DNA of 64,000 bases from Nitrososphaerota archaeon (GTDB lineage Archaea; Thermoproteota; Nitrososphaeria_A; Caldarchaeales; Caldarchaeaceae). The stretch covers positions 384,001-448,000 of the forward strand of contig JBEPYN010000001.1 in the NCBI GenBank assembly GCA_041641305.1. Reading direction: 5' to 3'. Position 1 is the stretch's first letter, and each line of letters opens with the position of its first letter. Position numbers and translations under genes: made by a program. Of the stretch, positions 4,745 to 62,084 are shown one piece after another. A model generated the notes under the pieces. That model was not told the DNA's origin and ran no database searches. It was given only the letters and a program-made list of their open reading frames with translations.

Positions 4745-6125
4745 CAGCCAAAAACAATAGATTATTTGCGCTTAGAAGATGAAGACATCCATCCGCGGAT
4801 GGATGTCCGAATGCGGTGTTTGAGAAGCTTACGCTTCAATGACCGCGTCCATAGGGTTTGGATGCGTCGCCAACTGGACGGCAGACGCCTTAGGCCAAAA
4901 TACGCCAGCCGGTGGATAACTCGGCTTGGGGGCCGAAGAAGGGCGCGGCAAGCTGCGAAAAGCCCCGGGTAGCCGCAAGCAGGCGTTGATCCGGGGATGC
5001 CCGAATGGGATTTCCCGGCATCCCGCGCTTCGGCGTGGGATGTCGCTCCACTGCCTCGAGCTGTGGAGCGGGAACCGGCCGAACGGAAGCATCCAAGTAG
5101 GCCGAGGAAAGGAAATCAAAACGAGACTCCCCTAGTAACGGCGAGTGAACGGGGACCAGGCCAAACCGAACCCGCATGGGAAACCATGTGGGGATGTGGG
5201 GTGTGGACCAGCCGCCCTCCTGTGCCCAGCGACCCGAAGCGACTTGGAAAGGTCCGCCATAGAGGGTGACAGCCCCGTAGGGGAAGCTGGGAGTGGAGAT
5301 GGGCTGGTTCCCGAGTACCGCACCTCGGATATGGTGCGGGAAGACAGGAGCCACTGGCTTCTAAGCCTAAGTACCTCCCAAGACCGATAGCGCAACAGTA
5401 CCGTGAGGGAAAGTTGAAAACTACCCCGAGAGGGGGGTGAAAAGCGGTTGAAACCGGCTGGTAATAGACGAGGGCGGCGCGCAAGGTACTCCGTCCGAAC
5501 ACGCCGCGTAGGTGTGGAGGGCGGATTATCCGGCGTCGTCCGCTCCGTCTTGAAACACGGGCCGGGGAGTTCACCGTCGTGGCGAGCTTAACCGCGGAAA
5601 GCGGGTAGGCATGGGGAAACCGAGAAGCCCGCAACCGACTCTTGTCGGCGAGGGGCCGGGTCCGAACAGGGCCTGTAGTCACGGCGGTGAGGCTAGAAAC
5701 CGGGCGATCTAGCCCTGGGTAGGGTGAAGCCGGGCGAAAGCTCGGTCGAGGCCCGAACGCGTCCTGACGTGCAATTCGGTGCGTTGACCTGGGGCTAGGG
5801 GCTAAAAACCAATCTAGCCCGGTGATAGCTAGTTCCCCCCGAAGTGTCTCGCAGGACAGCCTCGGCGGAGGTGGTCCGCGGGGTAGAGCACCGATGGGGT
5901 GGTAAGGGCTCGAAAGGGCCCGCCATCCTTTCGAACTCCGAATCCGCGGACGCCGTAGATGCCGGGAGTGGGGTGTGCGGGGTAAGCTCGCACGCCGAGA
6001 GGGGAACAACCCAGACCGCGGGTTAAGGCCCCAAAGTGCCCGCTAAGTGACAAACCAAAGGGCGTCTCCCTCCTAAGACAGCGGGGAGGTAGGAATAGAA
6101 GCTGCCATCCTCCAAGGAGTGCGTA

Positions 6126-6817
6126 AGTTGCGGAATCTCCGGCGAAAACTAAATTACCCGACTGCTTCTGCATCACGGTGGTGTTGGTTAACGAGGCCTA
6201 TATCGCAGGTGCTCTACGCGATGGCTACGTCGGAAGATACATCGACGTATATGGGAAGGTCCACAGCGTCGTAACACTTTACAACAATGACATCGATTGG
6301 CTAAAACGTGTGGCGGACTTGTTAAATTCCACATATGGAGTCAATGCGAGAATTTTTGTTAACCCCAATCGAACACCGTATCTTCGTGTATATTCAAAAA
6401 GACTTGTACAATATTTTGCTGAAAAATTCTGCCATCCCATAGGAAAGCAGACAAAATGGTGCACGCCTTTATTCATCAAGAACAGCGATGACCCCGAGCT
6501 TTGGAGGACCTACATCGCAGGATACTTTGATGCAGAAGGCGGAATTGATACGATTAAAAAACAGATCAAGTTTCACACATCTTTTGAGGGCTCAACATGC
6601 CCACCCCTTGTAGATATTAAACTAGCGCTCGCACGGTTCTTCGAAATCAGAACCGGAAACGTATGCATGTACCAAAACAATAGGGGAAAAATTCCCAGAT
6701 TTGTTCTACGCATACTCAAGTCGGATAATAGAAAGTTTTTCGGAACATTTCCACTACTTAACACTACAAAAATCCAAAGACTGTTGAAAATTATGCCGGA
6801 GCGTTCGCAACCGCAAG
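6126..6817 (+). mobile_element. Archaeal BHB-type rRNA intron (692 nt) in the GTPase-associated centre of 23S
   Basis: Removal restores GAGTGCGTA|ACAGCTCAC; junction TGCG-TAA / CGCA-AGA with intron stem GTTGCG/CGCAAC; the exon-side helix is weak (relaxed BHB). Confidence 0.9.
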
Positions 6818-6855
6818 ACAGCTCACCCGCCGAGGAGGGGGGCCCCGAAAATTGA
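6178..6855 (+). CDS. Intron-encoded LAGLIDADG homing endonuclease (no stop codon inside the linear intron)
   Basis: YIAGALRDGYV and YIAGYFDAEGGI motifs; low-GC insert in rRNA. Confidence 0.9.
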   Translation: MVLVNEAYIAGALRDGYVGRYIDVYGKVHSVVTLYNNDIDWLKRVADLLNSTYGVNARIFVNPNRTPYLRVYSKRLVQYFAEKFCHPIGKQTKWCTPLFIKNSDDPELWRTYIAGYFDAEGGIDTIKKQIKFHTSFEGSTCPPLVDIKLALARFFEIRTGNVCMYQNNRGKIPRFVLRILKSDNRKFFGTFPLLNTTKIQRLLKIMPERSQPQDSSPAEEGGPEN

Positions 6856-7339
6856 CGGGTCTAAGCGGGCCGCCGAAACCCGGGTTCACCCAGTTGTTGC
6901 TGGGTGGAGGTAGGGGGGCGTGGCGGTTGGGTGGAAGCAGGGCCGTGAGGTCCTGTGGACCGGCCGCCAATGTAGATCCCGGTGGTAGTAACAGCGGAGC
7001 GGGGTGAGAATCCCCGCCGCCGAAGGGGCAAGGGTCTCCCGGCAACGCGTCGTCGGCCGGGAGTAAGCCGGTCCTAAGCCCGACCTTAACCGGGTAGGGC
7101 GAAAGGGAAACCGGTTAATATTCCGGTGCCTCCGGAGTACGTGCGGCGACGCAAGGCCGGTGTCCGACGCTTCGGGGTAGGCTGAGCGGGGCCGTAGCCC
7201 CGTCTAAACGCATAAGCCTGGGGAGTGGCGTAAAGCCGAGAACCAGGTGAAAACGTGAACGGCCGCCCGTATGGGCGGTTCAGCTGATCCCTGGAGCCCA
7301 TGAAAAGGACACCGGCAAGGATCTCCGGAGACCGTGCCA

Positions 7340-7386
<47 letters not shown>

Positions 7387-7408
7387 TCACTCCAGGGCGA
7401 GGGAACTC

Positions 7409-7441
<33 letters not shown>

Positions 7442-7635
7442 TGCCTGAGGCCTTGGCCGCGAGGCTGGGGCCTTAGGTCGCAGTGACTAGGGGGTCCTGA
7501 CAGTTTAATAAAAACCTAGGTAGCCGCGAGACCGAAAGGTTTTGAACGGCTATTGAATCCTGGCCAGTGCGGGTACTCGAAAACCGGGTTCAACCGGCAT
7601 AAGGGCCCGTAAACGCCGGGAGTAACTCTGACTCT

Positions 7636-8772
7636 CGAGCTAAAAGGGAGTCGTTAAACCCGGCTATATGCGGGGAATTCCAGAACCCTTAACTACCTTA
7701 AAAGGTAACAATGTTGAGGGTTATGAGGAAGACCCGCAGGAAACCCCTGCCAACGTGGTCGCCATGCTCACCGAATTCTCCGACATAATTGATCCAAAAG
7801 ATCTTCCGAACAAGCTAAGCCAACTCAAGTGGCATATAACGGGGTTCGTCGACGGCGACGGGAGCTTTCCAATCATTCTCTCTCCAGAGGAGACAAAGAA
7901 ATTCGGCTGGTTGATACAGCCACGCTTCGAGTTGGAGCTGAGAAGCGGCGAAGACTCCGAGACGATGCTCAGAGTGGTTTGCAGAGCAGTGGGGATTAAG
8001 CCGAAAATATTGACGAGCGAAAACTACGTCAAACTAATCGTCACAAACAGGAGACTCCTCCTGGAAAAAGTGGTGCCATTCTTCGAGAAATACAGGCCCG
8101 TAATCAAATGGCGCGACTTCAAGACGATGAGCGAGGTTGCGAAAGACCTACACCAGAAAAAGCATCTAACATATGAGGGCTTCAAGGAGATCATCCGAAA
8201 AATTTACTCGCTACCAATGAATGGCGAGTCGCGGAGAAAGTGGAGGTTCAGCGACATCATACAGGATGAGGAGCCTCCTCAACACGTGGAGAAAAAAGAA
8301 GAACATAGATTTCCCAGGGGACTTGTTCCACTGAAACACTACGTCGCCGGCTTCATAGACGCCGAAGGCTCGTTGGGATTCGTCATAAACAAGGAGACCA
8401 AGTCGATAACACCGTATCTAACAATAACCAGCTCCGAGACAGTTGTGCTACAGAAAATAAGATGGCTTCTGGGATGCGGAGAAATCAGCACAGGAAGGCT
8501 CCAAATCTACGGCGTCGACAACTTCGTCAACAGTGTTGCACCGTTTCTCGACAGACAAAAGCTCATAGCGAAAAGGACAACATACAAGATGTTTAAGCAG
8601 ATTCTTGAGACGGTGGTCAGAGGCGACCACAAAAGAAACTGGGAAGAAACCGTAGCGTTCGTCAAAATGTTGAATAAAAAGGCAGGGGGATCCTCAGAGA
8701 CCATACGCCGGGCGTCCTCATCGAAGACTGGGGGCGAAGATATGGTCCAGCACCCGTAAACCCTGGGTGTTG
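7636..8772 (+). mobile_element. Group I self-splicing intron (1137 nt) at the LSU position equivalent to E. coli 1923
   Basis: P1 GACTCT/GGAGTC with U.G at the 5' splice site; P3 CCCGGC/GCCGGG; P4 TGCGGG/CCCGCA; P7 GACCAT/ATGGTC; terminal G at 8772; exons rejoin as GACTCT|CTTAAGGTAGCC. Confidence 0.92.
7764..8759 (+). CDS. Double-motif LAGLIDADG homing endonuclease in the group I intron (frame open from 7668)
   Basis: HITGFVDGDGSF and YVAGFIDAEGSL motifs; inserted between CCCCTGCC/GGCAGGGG (P6 extension). Confidence 0.92.
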   Translation: MLTEFSDIIDPKDLPNKLSQLKWHITGFVDGDGSFPIILSPEETKKFGWLIQPRFELELRSGEDSETMLRVVCRAVGIKPKILTSENYVKLIVTNRRLLLEKVVPFFEKYRPVIKWRDFKTMSEVAKDLHQKKHLTYEGFKEIIRKIYSLPMNGESRRKWRFSDIIQDEEPPQHVEKKEEHRFPRGLVPLKHYVAGFIDAEGSLGFVINKETKSITPYLTITSSETVVLQKIRWLLGCGEISTGRLQIYGVDNFVNSVAPFLDRQKLIAKRTTYKMFKQILETVVRGDHKRNWEETVAFVKMLNKKAGGSSETIRRASSSKTGGEDMVQHP

Positions 8773-9412
8773 CTTAAGGTAGCCAAATGCCTTGTCGGGT
8801 AAGTTCCGACGTGCATGAATGGATCAACGAGGGCCCCGCTGTCCCCGCCTGGAGCCCCGTGAACCCACGTAACGTGGGCGAACAGTCCACGAACTCCCAA
8901 CGGGGAAAGAAGACCCTGTGGAGCTTTACTGCAGCCTGTCGCTGGGATGTGGACGAGTGTGCAGAGCGTAGCCGGGAGCCGTCGATCCCCGTCTCTCCGG
9001 GGGCGGGGGGAGGCGCCCATGTAACACCGGCCACGCTTGTCTGCATCTCTCACCGGCGCGGAAGCGCTGGAACAACGGCAGGTGGGCAGTTTGGCTGGGG
9101 CGGCACCCCCTTGAAAAGATATCGAGGGGGCCCAAAGGTCGGCTTAGGCGGGACAGAAACCCGCCGTGAAGTGCAAGGGCAAAAGCCGGCTTGACAGGGC
9201 CCTTGAAAGCCAGGGGCCCTGAGGGGAAACCCAGGCCTAGCGATCCATCGGCTCCTACCAGTGGGGGCCGGTGGTGACAGAAAAGTTACCCCAGGGATAA
9301 CAGGCTCGTCGCGGGCGAGAGTCCCCATCGACCCCGCGGCTTGGTACCTCGATGTCGGCTCTTCCCAACCTGGCCGTGCAGAAGCGGCCAAGGGTGCGGC
9401 TGTTCGCCGATC

Positions 9413-9452
<40 letters not shown>

Positions 9453-9859
9453 ATCGGATTTTACCTGTTGGGAGTGCTGGCTGCCTGAGGGGAAGGTGTT
9501 CCCAGTACGAGAGGAACGGAGCGCCGGGGCCAACGGTGTACCGGTTGTCCTACAGGGCAGTGCCGGGCAGCTGCGCCCCCGCGGATAAGGGCTGAAAGCA
9601 TCTAAGCCCGAAGCCGCTCCCGAAAACAGGCAGCCACTCGCCGGGTAAGGGCTCGGCAACGGGCCTATACCGGCGACGAGGGCTCCCGTAGAAGACGGGT
9701 TTGATGGGGCGGGGGTGTACGGATGGAGGCTTCGGCCGGACATCCTCAGCCCGCCGCTCCCAACCGCCCGAGTGGCCTAAGGAAGCCGTCCAGGCGAAAA
9801 CGCATCCCACCCTACTTGGACGCGTAACACTTTATACCGCCTTATCTCATGGTTCCGAC

Positions 9860-55841: not shown

Positions 55842-56013
55842 ACCTGCTTATACAAGGGTCACAATTTAAAGCTCCGTACTCCGAGCTGACCATCCTCCTC
55901 ATCAAACACTCACACCAGACAAACTATCACCCCAAACATAAACAAAAACACCATAAAAGAAGGGAGAAAAGAGGGGATGGTTGGCTGGCAGGCAACCACC
56001 AACAACACCTAGG

Positions 56014-56104
56014 AAACCCTAAAAGAAGCCGGCACTTTAATTGTGACGGCAAGCCTCTTAAAGAGACTCTTTATTTAATTTGGCATACCGGCTTTTTTGG
56101 GTTT
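56014..56104 (-). ncRNA. Putative dual-guide hairpin RNA (two UGCC-N9-AAAG segments) downstream of the IS110/TasR-like gene
   Basis: Minus strand GCCGGUA-UGCC-AAAUUAAAU-AAAG-AGUCUCU-UUA-AGAGGCU-UGCC-GUCACAAUU-AAAG-UGCCGGC; both stem mismatches become G.U only on the minus strand. Confidence 0.6.
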
Positions 56105-57069
56105 TATCCCTGTTGTTGGGCCGGTATGCCTGCCAGCTTCTGGGTTTCCTGTCTGATGGTCGTCCAGATTGTTTTTAGTAGTTCTTGTTGTTGTTTTCCT
56201 TGTTGTTCTGTTCCATGTATTGCTCTTGCTAGTCTGGTTAAGGCGTGTCGTGTCTCATGGTTGTATTGTTTGTATCGTTTATTATCGAAGAGGCGTAGGT
56301 AACGTTTGAGCTTCATGAAGCCTCTTGAGAAGTCGACATAGGTCAACAATTCAGCCAAAGCCTCCCTAGCCATCACATGGTTGTCTCTTATTCCGAGTAT
56401 GTCTGCGATTGTTTTGTAGTATGGGTACCTCCTCTCAGCCTCCTCAGCAATAATCTCTGCCAGCTTCCTCATTCTCTCCTCGTTAAACCTTATCTCCTCC
56501 CTCAGTATCCTTCTCTCCATCTCTGATACTGCCTTAGACATGTTGAGCAGTCTCTGATGAGTTTTTAGGAGACTCCGGAAGGCAGCTATCATCCTCCTCA
56601 TTATGAGGAAGTCTTCATCCACCCTACGGAACCACTTATCACCAATAGCCATCAGAACCCTGATGTCAGATTTCGCGGACTTGGATTTTATGTTCAGCCT
56701 CTGCCTCACCGCCTCAATCATGCTTAGTCTCCGCAGATAGTAGACCTCTGCGCCTCTCCTCAGAAGCTCCATGAAACCATCTGTGTGGATTATTGGGATG
56801 GTGTCGACGAATACCTTGTCTCCCGGACCCACAGGAATCTCCGAAGGAGAATCAACATGCCTAAAGTTTTCGCCATCAGTTGTGTATGTTATCCTGTATC
56901 CGCTGTCGTCTTTCTTACGGTGGATGTCGGCGTAGAACCTTTTTACACCTTCTGCGCCCACGCCCTTGTCGCCCACCGCCGGGCCAGCGGCGGACGCCCC
57001 CGAATCATCAATCAGCCTCTCGGGAGCGGAGTCCGACTGGGAAGACGCGGAGGACATAATCCTCCCCAT
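56104..57069 (-). CDS. Divergent IS110/TasR-like protein (RuvC-like domain, coiled coil, Nop/HhH-like C-terminus); start uncertain
   Basis: FYADIH / VFVDT / KSAKSDIRVL resemble IS110 DEDD motifs; ILGI...ALAELL...F...LKRYLRL...YNHETRHAL resembles the IS110 C-terminal domain without the SG loop. Confidence 0.55.
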   Translation of the reverse strand: MGRIMSSASSQSDSAPERLIDDSGASAAGPAVGDKGVGAEGVKRFYADIHRKKDDSGYRITYTTDGENFRHVDSPSEIPVGPGDKVFVDTIPIIHTDGFMELLRRGAEVYYLRRLSMIEAVRQRLNIKSKSAKSDIRVLMAIGDKWFRRVDEDFLIMRRMIAAFRSLLKTHQRLLNMSKAVSEMERRILREEIRFNEERMRKLAEIIAEEAERRYPYYKTIADILGIRDNHVMAREALAELLTYVDFSRGFMKLKRYLRLFDNKRYKQYNHETRHALTRLARAIHGTEQQGKQQQELLKTIWTTIRQETQKLAGIPAQQQG

Positions 57070-57812
57070 ATGGTTGTTGGGGAGGCGGGCTCATGAAGCC
57101 CGGGAGCTCCGTGTCTACCCAGCCGCCCCGCTGTGACTAGGTCCCCAAAGGAGGCATTATTCCTCCGAGAATCATCGTGAACACCTATGTCTCCGCCAAA
57201 GGGCTTTGGAGCCGCTCCCACCAAGCGCCCCCATGGCGCCGTGATGAGAGAACCCGTGGAGGAGACACCATGCCTCCCCCACGGAAAACAGGCTCCAAAA
57301 ACCCTTGGCGAAGCATCTGAACAATCGTCTGACTATCTTCTGTCCTGTCCATGGTGTCTAGGGGGTGGTGTAGTCATGCGTAGCACGGCCTACACACCCC
57401 GCGATGCCGACCATGCGTAGCACGAGAAGGCATGCTTTGTCAAGACACCTGGACAGGCCTCAGCCGCATCGGCTCCGCCCCCGGCTCCGTCATGCGTAGC
57501 ACGGCCGGAGCCTTTCCCATCCCATGCATCCCGGAGAAGCCTGTCATGCGTAGCACGGCCAGACAACTCCACAGAGACACCCGTCATGCATGGCACGGCC
57601 GGGTGTCTGGGGCGGCGGACGCATGGGCTGGAGCGGAGCCGGAAGCCAGCCAACCACCCCCGCCACCCCACAAAGAATAATCAATGGGGTGGCCGCCTTG
57701 TTTCAGGCGGGTTAAGGGTGGCTGGTTCTTTTGTTTTCCCTCCTCTGCTTCTGTTTCATTGAACCCTTTTTTGGGTTCTCTGCTGTCGACTCCGCGAAGA
57801 TGTCTTCGCGAA
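57061..57812 (-). ncRNA. Putative large structured non-coding RNA/leader with five motif-capped hairpins
   Basis: Dense nested inverted repeats; GTCATGCGTAGCACGGCC-type motif five times on different stems. Confidence 0.5.
57373..57600. repeat. Five copies of an 18-bp motif GTCATGCGTAGCACGGCC (3 exact, 2 variant)
   Basis: Copies at 57373, 57412 (13-nt core), 57489, 57543 and 57583 (variant loop). Confidence 0.9.
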
Positions 57813-57862
57813 GTCCCATACCCTATCGAATGTGGTAGTGCTGGAGGCTTTTCTCCTTTTTT

Positions 57863-58447
57863 GTGGAATCTTTGTTTCCACCCTCTCTGGGAGTATATGT
57901 TTTTGTGATGGTTTCTCCGTTTTTTCATGGGTTTATGGGTTCTGGTGGGCGTGTTGGGGCAGCGTGTCTCCTACTCCTCATATACCTCTCCCTTAAGGGC
58001 TGGTCTCTGAGACGGCTGATATCTCGCCTGACACGGAATCCGAAGCGCCGCTATGCTAGGGTCCAGTTTAGGGAGCTTGCCGGTGAAATTGGGGTATCAC
58101 ATACACGTGTCAGGGGATGTGTGGATGAGCTTGTCGACGCAGAGTTTCTGGAGATCCGCCGTGAGGGTGAGGAGATATACATCATGGTTACTCGTAAGGG
58201 TGAGAGGCTTTCCTCAACGGCGACGAACTCAAACCTCATACTCCTGATATCCATAGCCCTCTACCTCTCAACGCTGTATAGCGTAGCCATCACGGCGAAC
58301 CTTGTCCTAGGAAAACCCATCGAACCCTATACAGGGCTCCCGTTAATAGTGGCGCTACTCACCACCTTCGTAATAGCCCTACCCAGACTCTACACAACCC
58401 TCCTACTAAGAAACCTAAGAAAAGCGTTAACAGGGCAGGAAAGATAG
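57863..58447 (+). CDS. Winged-helix protein with transmembrane helices; start uncertain
   Basis: FRELAGEIGVSHTRVRGCVDELVDAEFL...VTRKG wHTH followed by two hydrophobic segments. Confidence 0.55.
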   Translation: MESLFPPSLGVYVFVMVSPFFHGFMGSGGRVGAACLLLLIYLSLKGWSLRRLISRLTRNPKRRYARVQFRELAGEIGVSHTRVRGCVDELVDAEFLEIRREGEEIYIMVTRKGERLSSTATNSNLILLISIALYLSTLYSVAITANLVLGKPIEPYTGLPLIVALLTTFVIALPRLYTTLLLRNLRKALTGQER

Positions 58448-58721: not shown

Positions 58722-59528
58722 CTATGGGTGGGAGAAGGCTACGCGGTATATCAGTTTTCCGAATGGTGTGAGTTCGTATTTTTGTCCTGTGTCTTTGATT
58801 AGTAGGAGGTCTTCGGCCATGGCTTCTGCTACGTCTTTTCCGTATCTTTTCTCGAATTCGTTTTTCTCTATTGCGTTGGGTTGGATTAGGTCTTGGAGGG
58901 CTGAGCGGTATTTTTGGTCGAGGATTTCGGATTTCCAGTCTATGGGTAAGGGGGGTAGGGTGATTGTTGTTTTGAAGGTTTCGTGTCGGTAGTATACTGG
59001 TTTTCGCATTATGAAGGAGACGAGGCTGAGGGCTGTGCCTTCGGGTTTGAACCCTCCAGTGGCGTTTAGAAGCACTCTTTCTCCTTCGTGTTTTTTGATC
59101 AGGTCATAGGTTTTGAGGAGTAGGTTTTGAAGGCCTTTCTCATTGAATTCCTGCTCTGTTTGGAACCCTTCTATCCTGTGTTTTTTGGTGTTTATGCCTT
59201 TTTCCCAGAAGTATCGCTGGAGTGCGTTTGCGCATACCTCTCCAACCTCTGTGTCTGTGTGGAGTAGGTGAACTGTGTCAACTTTCCCTTTTTGTATGTA
59301 TTCTGAGATGGAGCTGAGTTCTGCGCTCGCTTCATGCCCCTTGTTTCTTATGTAGGTTAAGAGTTCTTCCACCACTTTTTCCTTGTTTATCTCATGTTTT
59401 TTTAGGGCGTTTTCCACGTCAAGCTGTCCTTGGAGGCTTGGCGGCAGGGTGGGGAGCTGTTTTTCCCGTAGTGCGTTGTTGAGGAGGCTGGCTCCCACGG
59501 TAACGATGTGAACGTATCTTTTGGGCAT
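58722..59528 (-). CDS. CRISPR-associated CARF protein, APE2256 family (putative Crn1-type ring nuclease)
   Basis: TVGASLLNN, LLHTDTEVG, LNATGGFKPE, VYYRHETF; C-terminal wHTH (LTPFG); next to the array. Confidence 0.85.
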   Translation of the reverse strand: MPKRYVHIVTVGASLLNNALREKQLPTLPPSLQGQLDVENALKKHEINKEKVVEELLTYIRNKGHEASAELSSISEYIQKGKVDTVHLLHTDTEVGEVCANALQRYFWEKGINTKKHRIEGFQTEQEFNEKGLQNLLLKTYDLIKKHEGERVLLNATGGFKPEGTALSLVSFIMRKPVYYRHETFKTTITLPPLPIDWKSEILDQKYRSALQDLIQPNAIEKNEFEKRYGKDVAEAMAEDLLLIKDTGQKYELTPFGKLIYRVAFSHP

Positions 59529-59690: not shown

Positions 59691-60784
59691 ATCTCCATCC
59701 TCCTTTCATTGACAGTTGAGCAAGGTCGTTTCCCTGCATAAGTCTTTGAATACTCAGCTTTCCATCCTCTTTTCATTGACAGTTTATTAGTGCATGTGTT
59801 GGGGGGTGTTTTGTGCATGCAGTCTTTCCATCCTCTTTTCATTGACAGCTAAGCGTCGGCGGCATCATCAAAAAATTCTTCATAAACTTTCCATCCTCTT
59901 TTCATTGACAGTGGTCGAGGCGGACAAGCGGTTTTCCAATTTATTCTATATGCTTTCCATCCTCTTTTCATTGACAGTGCATCTCGACCCCGTTGACTTT
60001 AGCGGCATTCCTCGGGACATCTTTCCATCCTCTTTTCATTGACAGACACCACTTAAACAACCACACATATTTATCCAAAGTAAAAATCTTTCCATCCTCT
60101 TTTCATTGACAGCGACATATTTGCCAAGCTGCTGGAGCCAGATACACGCCTTTCCATCCTCTTTTCATTGACAGTTCGGTCCGCTGGCTCTCAGCTTCCA
60201 GTTGGGGCAGGTGATCTTTCCATCCTCTTTTCATTGACAGTGAAAATGTACATGGAGTATGAGGCGGAGCATGAAACAGACGCTTTCCATCCTCTTTTCA
60301 TTGACAGAGACTTGATGATAGTCTCCGACGTTGGGTTCTCTTTTTCCAGCTTTCCATCCTCTTTTCATTGACAGTCACGTGTCTATAGAGTTTGACGGCA
60401 GGCGCTATTGTGTTACGCTTACTCGCTTTCCATCCTCTTTTCATTGACAGAAGAAGTTCATAAGTTGCCTCCTGGGACAAGAGTTCATAGACTTTCCATC
60501 CTCTTTTCATTGACAGACGAAGGATGTGGCCGCGTTTCTTGGAAAAAGCCAGCAGTCTTTCCATCCTCTTTTCATTGACAGAAATATATGAAACACGCAA
60601 AGGATACCACATAATTGCTTACTTTCCATCCTCTTTTCATTGACAGTGGGACATAGAGAACTACCCCGCTCTCGACGTTATGCTGAACGCTTTCCATCCT
60701 CTTTTCATTGACAGGACGTCGAGGTTCGGAGAGTTCCGTGTGGTGCAGATTAAGAAGGACTTTCCATCCTCTTTTCATTGACAG
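59691..60784 (-). CRISPR. CRISPR array: 16 exact 25-bp repeats CTGTCAATGAAAAGAGGATGGAAAG plus 1 degenerate repeat; 16 spacers of 37-51 bp; further remnant near 59640-59664
   Basis: Counted directly; degenerate copies at the low-coordinate end and the GAAAG 3' end give minus orientation. Confidence 0.97.
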
Positions 60785-60959
60785 GTGTGCCTGATTCCCG
60801 GAAATTTAGGCGAATCGGGCGGTTTTGTCGAGTGGGTCTTTCAGGCGACGAATTTTTGGAGCCTCTATATTAATGTTAGCCGGAAATCCTCGAAGGTTCA
60901 GCGATAGCCGTCGGTAATGGGCCCATCAAAAATGAGAGAATAAAGGAAAACTTTTGACA
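60785..60959 (-). promoter_or_regulatory. CRISPR leader
   Basis: Non-coding, adjoins the intact end of the array; AT-rich ATTAATATAG (minus) near 60864-60873. Confidence 0.7.
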
Positions 60960-62084
60960 TCACCTCCTGAAACTCAGCTTAACCCACCCGAGGGGGCTTG
61001 GCTCGCCGTCCGCCCCTTCCTGCACTAGACGCATAGACGACGGAAAACTCCGAGGGGCCGCCTGACTAAACCTCCTCGAACCTAACGCCCTAAACACCTG
61101 ACCCTCCAGATTTTCAAAGGCCATCGTAACCGTAGTCTTCCAATAACCCTGCCCATAGCCCAAGCTGGTCACAGCCTCCAGCTCACCAACCTTAGAAACC
61201 TCATCCAACAGAGAATCCAACCGTCTCCGAACACTCCCCGAAACATTCCCACCACCCAGCCTAACCAAATCCCTTTGCAGAACAGCCCGAGACCTCTCGT
61301 TAGCCATCTTCACCAAATCACTGACCAACGTCCCAACCATATCCTTCCTCGCAACCTTCTCCGAAACCTTTTGAACCATGAATACATGCAGGCCTCCGCG
61401 AAAAACCGTTCCCGAGGGAACCACCTCAACAAAGCCTAACCGCCTCTGACCAGAACCCCCAAACCTCATGCTAAGAAGCCGCGCCACACAAGTCTCCACC
61501 TCAGCCTCTGGAAACAAGTCAGATGGTCTCAGAAGCCGCAACAAATCACTCTCGAAAGAATGAGTATCCCGCCTAAGAACACTCTCCACCACAGCACCTT
61601 TCCCCTTTCTTTCCTGCTTAATTTCCTCCAACAACTTTCCGGCCAAACCTGAGTTACTCTTCAAAATCCCATATATCAGAGAAGTCCTGAGCGAGCCCTT
61701 CAGACTGCTCCCCGGCAGATACACCGACCCCTCAAGCGTTCTAATGAAAGGCATCAACTCAGAGCTGAAACTGTCATCACGCAAATGGTCCCGGAACCTT
61801 ATCCTGTATCTCGCCACCTTTTCAGCGAAGCGCTGCACGTCAACACCGTTATTCCTAAGGAACAGGGTGAGAGAAAAGTGTCCTGACTCCAGCTCCCTTA
61901 GATACATGTTCACAAGCCGATTTTTTTCCAGTTCTTGGAAAAGTTTGTCATGGTCCACCACGTAAAGCCAGCCGCCATGGTGTATGTAATCGACGCCGGT
62001 CAACCTCTCGTTCATTCCCACGTGAATAGGAGTTAGGGCCTGGACACGAATCTCGTAAACCTCAACCTGTGACAGCCGAGGCAT
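60960..62084 (-). CDS. csm5: Type III-A RAMP Csm5
   Basis: LTPIHVG, YLPGSSLKGSLRT, LGYGQG, PLGWVKL. Confidence 0.9.
   Translation of the reverse strand: MPRLSQVEVYEIRVQALTPIHVGMNERLTGVDYIHHGGWLYVVDHDKLFQELEKNRLVNMYLRELESGHFSLTLFLRNNGVDVQRFAEKVARYRIRFRDHLRDDSFSSELMPFIRTLEGSVYLPGSSLKGSLRTSLIYGILKSNSGLAGKLLEEIKQERKGKGAVVESVLRRDTHSFESDLLRLLRPSDLFPEAEVETCVARLLSMRFGGSGQRRLGFVEVVPSGTVFRGGLHVFMVQKVSEKVARKDMVGTLVSDLVKMANERSRAVLQRDLVRLGGGNVSGSVRRRLDSLLDEVSKVGELEAVTSLGYGQGYWKTTVTMAFENLEGQVFRALGSRRFSQAAPRSFPSSMRLVQEGADGEPSPLGWVKLSFRR

What the first reader, a model, noticed from the sequence alone, without database searches (positions are those of the whole stretch)
57061..57812. Roughly 750-nt highly structured non-coding region with five hairpins sharing one apical motif
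Seen: TCATGCGTAGCACGGC caps stems of different sequence (GTGTAG/CTACAC, GGCTCCG/CGGAGCC, CTG/CAG, AGACACCCG/CGGGTGTCT). These are nested in larger helices: CCTGTCCA-T-GGTGTCT/AGACACC-TGGACAGG, GGCTCCGC/GCGGAGCC, CCCATGCATCC/GGACGCATGGG, with another domain (TTTGGAGCC/GGCTCCAAA) nearby. The variant copy changes the 3-nt loop but keeps TGC/GCA. Pairing preserved across different stem sequences points to selection on structure. Inference: a multivalent protein-binding RNA or ssDNA (REP-like) element directly upstream of the IS110/TasR-like gene. I cannot assign it to a known family.
Basis: partly seen in the sequence, partly recalled or inferred. Interest (0 to 1): 0.75.

Follow-up and report, generated by a model that had tools for sequence, protein, structure and literature searches.

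The report
Hairpin-display RNA partner of archaeal TasR
The five look-alike hairpins are real and belong to a roughly 570-base folded RNA, not found in Rfam or the papers searched, that sits next to an RNA-guided TasR/IS110-like gene on a mobile CRISPR island of a hot-spring archaeon; it may pair with that gene's guide RNA, much as tracrRNA pairs with crRNA.

Summary
The motif occurs three times exactly and twice as variants at 57374-57599, each capping a private stem inside larger helices.

The transcript is on the minus strand (about 57168-57737). It folds far better there, and 26 of 179 base pairs show compensatory changes across five homologues. It matches no Rfam family, is not coding, and is not REP-like.

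It is one of three copies in this Caldarchaeum genome. Its conserved 5' domain occurs in 13 of 75 Caldarchaeales genomes, 12 of which also carry the neighbouring gene. That gene's product folds like IS110 bridge recombinases and TIGR-TasR.

The module lies at the tip of a 14.7-kb CRISPR island that is absent from Ca. C. subterraneum.

The hairpins form a variable expansion (one to seven capped hairpins) between a conserved 5' and 3' core. The same hairpins in related RNAs keep their stems, but all their caps change together, which suggests one shared partner.

New here: an invariant G-rich segment is complementary to the 3' tail of the dual-guide hairpin RNA downstream of the gene. The two co-vary in 14 loci.

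I read it as a scaffold RNA for the guide complex. The binding partner and the transcription are inferred. Earlier scan agents noted the sister copy.

The parts
57725..57737 (-). C/A-rich leader (AACCAGCCACCC) that can pair in cis with the G-rich segment (candidate helix P1).
   Evidence: Duplex of -27 kcal/mol against -18.9 in shuffles. The leader co-varies with the G-rich segment between clades (AAACCCUCACCC with GGGGGAGGGUUU).
57663..57710 (-). Conserved 5' domain: hairpin 1 (CCGCCU..AGGCGG) and hairpin 2 (CCACCCC..GGGGUGG).
   Evidence: Folds as two hairpins. The stems are invariant or co-varying in 22 homologues. This is the basis of model R1, which finds the RNA in 13 of 75 genomes of the order.
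57645..57661 (-). Invariant G-rich segment GGGGGUGGUUGGCUGGC, complementary to the 3' tail of the guide RNA.
   Evidence: Identical in all three RNA copies of this genome. Its complement lies after all four tasR-like genes. The duplex is -39.5 kcal/mol against -20.3 +/- 2.7 in shuffles. It co-varies in 14 loci.
57343..57642 (-). Variable expansion domain. Two multi-branch subdomains (helices 4/5 and helix 9) carry the five capped hairpins.
   Evidence: Consensus fold and pair counts. In relatives this stretch ranges from about 15 nt with one hairpin to about 320 nt with up to seven capped hairpins.
57575..57608 (-). Capped hairpin 1 (stem AGACACCCG/CGGGUGUCU; cap variant with loop CAU).
57534..57570 (-). 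Capped hairpin 2 (stem GGAG-UU-GUCUG / CAGGC-UU-CUCC; exact cap).
57483..57512 (-). Capped hairpin 3 (stem GGCUCCG/CGGAGCC; exact cap).
   Evidence: The stem is conserved in homologues D and L091, whose caps differ.
57400..57440 (-). Capped hairpin 4 (stem GCAUGCC/GGCAU.GC; cap with altered flanks).
   Evidence: Four compensatory pairs in L091 (helix 10).
57364..57400 (-). Capped hairpin 5 (stem GGGGUGUGUAG/CUACAC.ACCCC; exact cap).
57187..57343 (-). Conserved linker (ACAGAAGAU...GUUCAGAU) and 3' domain. The 3' domain is a three-way junction with two long hairpins.
   Evidence: Conserved in all full-length copies. Helices 12-16 have GU and compensatory changes.
56104..56961 (-). TasR/IS110-fold gene (RuvC-like domain plus helical Nop/Tnp-like domain). 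The probable start is GTG at 56961; a longer ORF begins with ATG at 57069.
   Evidence: 565 homologues of about 280 aa and no Pfam match. The model matches 9t56, 8wt6 and 9mty. No invariant Ser in the C-terminal half.
55960..56136 (-). Dual-guide hairpin RNA. Its basal stem starts in the last codons of the gene. Guides are at 56072-56080 (AAUUAAAUA) and 56038-56046 (UCACAAUUA). The C-rich tail is at 55973-55989, followed by a T-tract.
   Evidence: Folds at -73 kcal/mol. The guides match opposite strands of the empty site.
55864..55869 (.). Left junction (ATTTAA) of the 14.66-kb island. The right junction lies beyond the window, at window-equivalent 70532-70537.
   Evidence: The flanks are contiguous in Ca. 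C. subterraneum, with a 6-nt overlap.

Best explanation
The five hairpins are the variable 'display' domain of a conserved non-coding RNA of about 570 nt on the minus strand. This RNA belongs to the RNA-guided TasR/IS110-like module at the tip of a mobile 14.7-kb CRISPR island.

Shown:
- The RNA has a conserved core (two 5' hairpins, an invariant G-rich segment, and a 3' three-way junction) with an expansion between them.
- The expansion carries one to seven hairpins whose stems are free to vary and whose caps are kept alike within one RNA.

Inferred:
- The G-rich segment pairs with the C-rich 3' tail of the dual-guide hairpin RNA encoded just after the gene. This could happen in cis on one long transcript or in trans, much as tracrRNA pairs with crRNA.
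- The pairing would tether a scaffold to the guide complex.
- The repeated caps would dock several copies of one partner. The TasR-like protein is the likeliest candidate, because it is the only gene consistently found next to the RNA.
- The result would be a multi-subunit particle for finding or joining the target site.
For: Structure and strand.

Part of a family:
- Three copies in this genome, and copies in Ca. C. subterraneum, HR01, HR02 and hot-spring metagenomes.
- Found in 13 of 75 Caldarchaeales genomes, 12 of which also carry the tasR-like gene.
- The tasR-like gene is the only recurrent neighbour: 13 of 25 loci, and downstream on the same strand in 12.

Protein fold.

Caps point to a shared partner:
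- In alignment A4 the same hairpins (same stems) carry GC-CGUGC-UAC-GCAUG-A here, GA-CGUGC-UUAU-GCAUG-G in D, and CA-CGUGC-GAU-GCAUG-G in L091.
- Cap type follows the tasR lineage.

Pairing with the guide tail:
- A 17-nt complement lies after all four tasR-like genes of this genome.
- The duplexes are -34 to -45 kcal/mol at a fixed place 102-124 nt after the stop codon, against -20 to -31 in shuffles.
- Compensatory changes include a terminal pair seen as C-G, A-U and G-C, a U-A to A-U swap, and a 2-bp insertion. In the loci read base by base (A, B, D, E, L030, L020) every departure is a G-U pair; L103 has one A-C mismatch.
- The tail is a single-stranded 3' overhang of the guide hairpin.
Against: - There are no expression data, so neither the transcript ends nor co-transcription with the gene are known.
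- The G-rich segment also has a co-varying partner in cis, the leader. The tail pairing may therefore be an alternative state or may not form at all.
- The C-rich tail is conserved in elements and genomes without the RNA (G037 and G026). A 1.5-kb sister element in this genome lacks the RNA. The RNA is therefore not obligatory, at least in cis.
- In L031 and L015 the complementarity is weak.
- Nothing shows that TasR binds the caps. Cap types differ widely, and some RNAs carry mixed caps (E, L092).
- Inverted copies of one sequence could also be kept alike at the DNA level.
Confidence: 0.45

Rival explanations
1. It is a cis-acting structured leader of the tasR-like mRNA. The caps would bind the encoded protein (or another factor) to feed back on translation or stability. 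The pairing of the G-rich segment with the tail would merely close the 5' and 3' ends of one long transcript.
For: - The RNA lies 100-1100 nt upstream of the gene on the same strand in 12 loci.
- No T-tract follows the 3' domain in the window, so read-through into the gene is plausible.
- An earlier agent read copy B as a structured leader.
Against: - Copy C lies 10 kb from its cognate gene, and copy D is divergent from its nearest tasR-like gene.
- There are fewer RNA copies than genes, yet all tails match the G-rich segment. That fits action in trans.
Confidence: 0.25
2. It is an independent RNA that titrates or recruits a host factor (a sponge or decoy in the manner of CsrB). It would be carried as cargo or as a selfish passenger, with no direct role in the TasR-like machinery.
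For: - The layout of many hairpins with one cap resembles protein-sponge RNAs.
- The RNA is optional for the element.
- Several RNA loci have no tasR-like gene nearby.
Against: - The co-varying complementarity to the guide tail.
- Co-inheritance of cap type with the tasR lineage.
- 12 of 13 RNA-positive genomes are tasR-positive.
- The cap is found nowhere else in the genome.
Confidence: 0.15
3. It is a DNA-level element: iteron-like repeats of a replication origin, REP-like palindromes, or protein-binding sites acting in double- or single-stranded DNA.
For: Five same-orientation copies of a 16-bp motif within 230 bp, on a mobile island.
Against: - Strand asymmetry of folding energy.
- G-U pairs and one-sided changes are compatible only with the minus-strand RNA.
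- Compensatory changes occur in long-range helices.
- The motif is not dispersed in the genome.
Confidence: 0.04

Closest known systems
Stem-loop TIGR arrays of TIGR-Tas systems (Faure et al. 2025, PMC12045711; Xu et al. 2026 preprint, 10.64898/2026.09.09.750476)
   Same: - Tandem hairpins with variable palindromic stems lie next to a gene with a RuvC plus Nop-like fold.
- The neighbouring protein matches TasR (9mty).
   Different: - TIGR hairpin loops hold two variable 8-12-nt spacers flanked by short box C/D motifs. Here the 16-nt cap is constant and holds no spacer.
- The hairpins are embedded in one large RNA with conserved 5' and 3' domains.
- The real dual-guide unit is a separate hairpin 3' of the gene.
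Bridge RNA and seekRNA of IS110/IS1111 elements (IS621, ISCro4; PDB 8WT6, 8WT9, 9T56)
   Same: - A structured non-coding RNA is encoded beside a recombinase-like RuvC/Tnp-fold gene inside a mobile element.
- The protein fold matches at TM about 0.62.
   Different: - About three times longer.
- No internal loops match the target or donor site (no match of 8 nt or more to attB or attP).
- The protein family has no invariant serine in its C-terminal half.
- The guides sit in a second RNA unit.
tracrRNA:crRNA pairing in type II and V CRISPR-Cas (analogy of mechanism only)
   Same: A locus-encoded second RNA carries a constant segment complementary to the constant part of the guide RNA. The two segments co-vary.
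   Different: No homology, a different effector family, and neither the pairing nor any processing has been shown. The RNA is also dispensable in some elements.
Protein-sponge RNAs with repeated hairpin motifs (CsrB/RsmZ type)
   Same: Several hairpins present the same short motif on one RNA.
   Different: - The caps are bulged mini-helices (CGUGC/GCAUG plus a triloop), not GGA loops.
- The partner is unknown.
- The context is an archaeal mobile element.

Membership tests
Any Rfam 15 family | Score at or above the family's gathering threshold. | tested here: not met
   Only LSU rRNA and one tRNA pass in the window. The best local hit is psaA at 25.7 bits against a threshold of 50.
TIGR stem-loop array | An adjacent Tas protein with a Nop-type RNA-binding domain. 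| tested here: met
   Foldseek match to TasR 9mty (TM 0.62, probability 1.0), together with IS621 and ISCro4. There is no sequence-level Pfam or PDB match.
TIGR stem-loop array | Each hairpin loop carries two variable 8-12-nt spacers flanked by box C/D nucleotides. | tested here: not met
   The loop is a constant 16-nt cap with no variable stretch. The feature is taken from PMC12045711.
IS110 bridge RNA / IS1111 seekRNA | Two internal loops whose strands are complementary to the target and to the donor (element ends). | tested here: not met
   The RNA shares at most 7-mers with attP and attB. 82 of 300 shuffled sites share an 8-mer, so this is at chance level. The guides lie in the separate 3' hairpin.
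IS110 family recombinase (neighbouring gene) | A catalytic serine in the C-terminal Tnp domain. | tested here: inconclusive
   There is no invariant Ser among the conserved columns of the C-terminal half in 29 homologues. No residue-level structural superposition was made.
REP/BIME-like extragenic palindromes | Many dispersed copies across intergenic regions of the genome. | tested here: not met
   Eight hits with up to 2 mismatches, all on one strand and all inside two copies of this RNA.
tracrRNA-like partner RNA (functional class) | A constant segment complementary to the constant part of the guide RNA, kept by compensatory change. | tested here: met
   A 17-20-bp duplex at a fixed position in 14 loci of two families. 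The terminal pair is seen as C-G, A-U and G-C, with a U-A to A-U swap and a 2-bp insertion.
tracrRNA-like partner RNA (functional class) | The duplex forms in vivo and is bound or processed with the effector. | not testable with these tools
   No transcript or binding data are available.
CRISPR repeat / Cas6 hairpin | Similarity of the cap to the repeat of the island's CRISPR array. | tested here: not met
   The repeat is CTTTCCATCCTCTTTTCATTGACAG and does not resemble the cap.

The most novel reading that the evidence does not exclude
A two-RNA, RNA-guided DNA-insertion system in archaea. In it a large scaffold RNA would pair through a fixed 17-nt segment with the tail of a dual-guide hairpin RNA, as tracrRNA does with crRNA. 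The scaffold's one to seven identical hairpin caps would gather several TasR-like subunits (or a co-factor) for handling large cargo islands. Cap sequence would act as a specificity code that keeps paralogous systems in one cell apart.
Probability: 0.3. Interest if true: 0.85.

Novelty: new variant of a known kind. Interest (0 to 1): 0.72.

Why it matters
TIGR-Tas and IS110 bridge systems are the newest RNA-guided DNA tools, and both are described as using one compact RNA. This archaeal branch carries a dual-guide hairpin that spells out the site where a 14.7-kb CRISPR island was inserted. It also carries a second, much larger RNA with a co-varying complement to the guide's tail and a modular array of identical docking hairpins.

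If the pairing and docking are real, three things follow:
- It would be the first accessory or scaffold RNA in this effector superfamily.
- It would give a natural example of multivalent assembly on a guide complex.
- It would offer a handle on how serine-less TasR-like proteins move large DNA.

It also defines a new structured RNA family of Caldarchaeales, suitable for Rfam.

Tried and rejected
1. K-turn or K-loop reading of the cap (an L7Ae site). The 3' GA fits, but the 5' strand lacks the tandem G-A pairs, and other cap types are plain helices. By inspection.
2. Caps as mimics of one guide half-loop. The cap has the same 16-nt length and the same 5' GCC box as the guide loops here, and GAC boxes occur in D. 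The idea fails for cap types T3 and T5, and for the boxes of E and L087.
3. The RNA as a donor- or target-binding bridge. There is no match of 8 nt or more to attP or attB.
4. The cap as a Cas6 or CRISPR-repeat look-alike. No similarity.
5. A fourth RNA copy at C2:457482. It holds only the 17-mer, inside apparently coding sequence, without hairpins 1 and 2.
6. Coding potential. The ORFs inside the RNA have no Pfam match, the exact 93-aa ORF is not on record, and the substitutions are compensatory.
7. Transcript evidence through contigs carrying the called gene. Only genomic MAG contigs of the same island turned up.
8. A second conserved neighbour gene as the cap partner. None is recurrent other than the tasR-like gene.
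9. A stable local fold of the tail region. Not better than shuffles (z about 0).
10. Literature search for Caldarchaeum together with IS110. No papers found.

Full report
**1. What is in the sequence**

The 16-mer TCATGCGTAGCACGGC occurs exactly at 57374, 57490 and 57544. Variants occur at 57411 and 57584. The chance expectation is 0.42.

The minus strand folds much better than the plus strand: -178.6 kcal/mol (z -6.1) against -148.1 (z -2.7) for 57330-57660. The whole unit gives z -9.4. On the minus strand the cap reads GC-CGUGC-UAC-GCAUG-A. That is a 5-bp mini-helix with a G-U pair and a triloop, set on the private stem through a 2x1 internal loop.

Rfam has no match at gathering scores. It also has none at E up to 10, apart from sub-threshold noise. 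The ORFs inside the region have no Pfam match.

**2. A conserved, multi-copy RNA**

The window comes from a 1.66-Mb archaeal genome. Close protein relatives are annotated Candidatus Caldarchaeum.

The cap occurs only in two places in that genome. The second is a paralogous copy B, 76 kb away. Copy B is 90% identical over 57168-57709, which is more conserved than the adjacent gene at 80%. The few differences between the two copies create G-U pairs on the minus strand.

A third copy C, on another contig, keeps only the 5' 88 nt and the 3' 155 nt. Its middle holds six hairpins with a different cap, CUUGCCCGUGAGCGG.

Ca. C. subterraneum has one RNA of each kind, D and E. Further copies come from HR01, HR02, other Caldarchaeum-genus genomes and hot-spring metagenomes, giving 25 distinct instances.

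The architecture is a conserved core with an expansion in between.
- The core has a leader, hairpin 1, hairpin 2, the G-rich segment CGGGGGUGGUUGGCUGGC, the linker ACAGAAGA and a three-way-junction 3' domain.
- The expansion ranges from about 15 nt with one hairpin to about 320 nt with up to seven capped hairpins.
- At least eight cap types exist.

**3. Covariation**

In an alignment of the five closest homologues (A, B, L088, D, L091; A4), RNAalifold predicts 179 pairs. On that structure 95.2% of cells are paired. 26 pairs changed on both sides, against 9.7 +/- 2.3 in column shuffles (0 of 500) and 2-10 when the partners are slid.

Helices 4, 5, 10 and 16 each have four compensatory pairs.

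**4. The caps change in concert**

In A4 the hairpins are orthologous. For example, the stem GGCU(C/U)CG/CGGAGCC of hairpin 3 and the stem GUGUAG/CUACAC of hairpin 5 are kept. Yet all caps differ between RNAs:
- GC-CGUGC-UAC-GCAUG-A in A, B and L088;
- GA-CGUGC-UUAU-GCAUG-G in D;
- CA-CGUGC-GAU-GCAUG-G in L091.

So the stems are under structural constraint only, while the caps are under sequence constraint that shifts for the whole RNA at once. That is what one shared trans-acting partner would produce. Some RNAs (E, L092) carry mixed caps, so the change is gradual.

Cap type follows the lineage of the neighbouring gene. The genes next to A and B are sisters. The gene 10 kb downstream of C is sister (100/99 support) to the gene next to E. 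The minimal RNAs go with a separate gene clade.

**5. The neighbouring gene and the island**

The minus-strand ORF 56104-57069 has no Pfam or NCBIfam match. It has 565 homologues, mostly about 280 aa, in Caldarchaeales and hot-spring metagenomes. A GTG start at 56961 therefore seems likely.

An AlphaFold model built on 29 homologues (pLDDT 90.3) matches the IS621 and ISCro4 bridge recombinases and TIGR-TasR over its full length, at TM about 0.62 and probability 1.0. Profile searches of PDB and Pfam find nothing. No serine is invariant in the C-terminal half.

Just after the stop codon lies a hairpin of about 170 nt (-73 kcal/mol). Its basal stem begins in the last codons of the gene. Its symmetric 15+15-nt internal loop holds two 9-mers.

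Comparison with Ca. C. subterraneum shows that window 55870 to window-equivalent 70531 (14.66 kb) is an insertion, with ATTTAA at both junctions. The two 9-mers match opposite strands of the empty site at 8/9 each. One of them matches the occupied right junction at 9/9.

The island carries CARF and RAMP genes and a 17-repeat CRISPR array. Earlier agents of this scan reached the same reading of such guides for sister elements. I confirmed it independently for this window.

The large RNA therefore lies inside the island, next to the effector gene at its tip. It shares no 8-mer with attP or attB beyond chance, so it is not a bridge-type guide.

**6. A new link: the G-rich segment and the guide tail**

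The invariant 17-mer GGGGGUGGUUGGCUGGC (57645-57661) is the complement of GCCAGCCAACCA(U/C)CCCC. That sequence lies about 115 nt after the stop codon of all four tasR-like genes of this genome, including a 1.5-kb element that has no large RNA of its own. It forms the single-stranded 3' overhang of the guide hairpin, just before a T-tract.

In 14 loci from two families, the best duplex between the cognate G-rich segment and the 230-240 nt after the gene falls at this same place. The energies are -34 to -45 kcal/mol, against -20 to -31 for shuffles. Two further loci are weak.

The pairing is kept by compensatory change:
- the terminal pair is C-G here, A-U in HR01 and clade II, and G-C in G017;
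- a U-A pair becomes A-U;
- clade II has two extra base pairs.

In the loci read base by base (A, B, D, E, L030, L020) every remaining difference is a G-U pair. L103 has one A-C mismatch.

Caveats:
- A C-rich leader upstream of hairpin 1 can pair with the same segment in cis, and it also co-varies.
- The tail exists in elements and genomes that lack the RNA.

**7. Distribution**

A covariance model of the 5' domain finds the RNA in 13 of 75 genomes of the order, in two families, at 1-9 copies. The protein profile finds the gene in 25 of 75. Twelve of the 13 RNA-positive genomes have the gene.

RNA copies are always fewer than gene copies: 3 against 5 here, 2 against 9 in Ca. C. subterraneum, and 9 against 22 in G003. 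The tasR-like gene is the only recurrent neighbour of the RNA. These genomes are related, so the counts are descriptive only.

**8. Reading**

Shown:
- a structured minus-strand RNA family with a modular hairpin-display domain;
- its physical and evolutionary association with a TasR/IS110-fold gene in a mobile island;
- a co-varying complement to the guide RNA's tail.

Inferred:
- that the tail pairing forms, in cis or in trans;
- that the caps dock multiple copies of one partner, most simply the TasR-like protein.

My best model is a scaffold RNA that joins the guide complex. The main rivals are a purely cis-acting leader and a sponge for a host factor. A DNA-level reading is disfavoured by the strand asymmetry and by the long-range compensatory pairs.

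**9. Comparison with known systems and novelty**

Stem-loop TIGR arrays share variable palindromic stems and the effector fold. Their loops, however, carry two variable spacers with box C/D nucleotides (PMC12045711; preprint 10.64898/2026.09.09.750476). That feature is absent here.

IS110 bridge RNAs are single RNAs of about 180 nt with target and donor loops. That too is absent here.

I found no paper linking Caldarchaeum with IS110. The TIGR-Tas papers I read (PMC12045711 and the preprint, the latter searched for 'tracr' and 'trans-acting') describe no accessory RNA.

Earlier agents of this scan had already described sister copy B as a hairpin-display RNA and a structured leader. This report adds:
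- the core-plus-expansion architecture;
- the cap types and their concerted change in orthologous hairpins;
- the island context for this copy;
- the distribution across the order;
- the complementarity between the G-rich segment and the guide tail.

Noticed in passing
window 59694-60790 (second array beyond the window, at genome C1:450943-451943): A CRISPR array of 17 repeats (CTTTCCATCCTCTTTTCATTGACAG, spacing about 66 nt) lies between a Cas_APE2256/CARF gene (58722-59528) and a RAMP gene (60960-62084). All of this sits inside the 14.7-kb island, so a whole type III-like CRISPR module appears to be mobile cargo.
   Followed up: partly
window 4887-9783: The archaeal LSU rRNA match spans 4897 nt for a 2987-position model. 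The gene therefore carries about 1.9 kb of insertions, presumably rRNA introns.
   Followed up: no
window 56104-56136 with 55985-56015: The last codons of the tasR-like gene (LAGIPAQQQG*) form the 5' strand of the basal stem of the guide hairpin. This probably explains why that C-terminal peptide is so conserved across the family.
   Followed up: partly
genome C1:453969-454516 (window-equivalent 69969-70516): The far end of the island has a conserved stretch of about 550 nt. It is also found at the far end of island B (C1:531049-531625) and, inverted, just upstream of the 1.5-kb sister element (C2:517913-518143). It may be the element's other functional end.
   Followed up: no
L009:4836-5462 (between RNA copy B and its gene): A further conserved module of about 620 nt follows the RNA in copy B. 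It recurs after copies C, L030, L088 and L092. It is open as a 273-aa frame in B but has no family match, so it may be another RNA module.
   Followed up: no
L015:1080-1160 and L020 equivalent: Upstream of the minimal RNAs there is a box C/D-like sRNA candidate (AUGAUGA ... GUGA ... CUGA).
   Followed up: no
window 57788-57815: A near-perfect 13+13-nt palindrome (GACTCCGCGAAGA / TCTTCGCGAAGTC) lies in the spacer between the RNA and the divergent HTH-like gene (57863-58447). It is not conserved in copy B.
   Followed up: no
G037 and loci L035-L073 (MAG PSS.bin.6): L035-L073 are nearly 40 whole or partial tasR-like loci from the single MAG PSS.bin.6, and G037 shows 32 matches; they may be the same genome, which I did not check. 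So the element has proliferated there like an insertion sequence. Only one locus (L041) shows a large RNA, with CCCGGUUCGGGG caps.
   Followed up: partly
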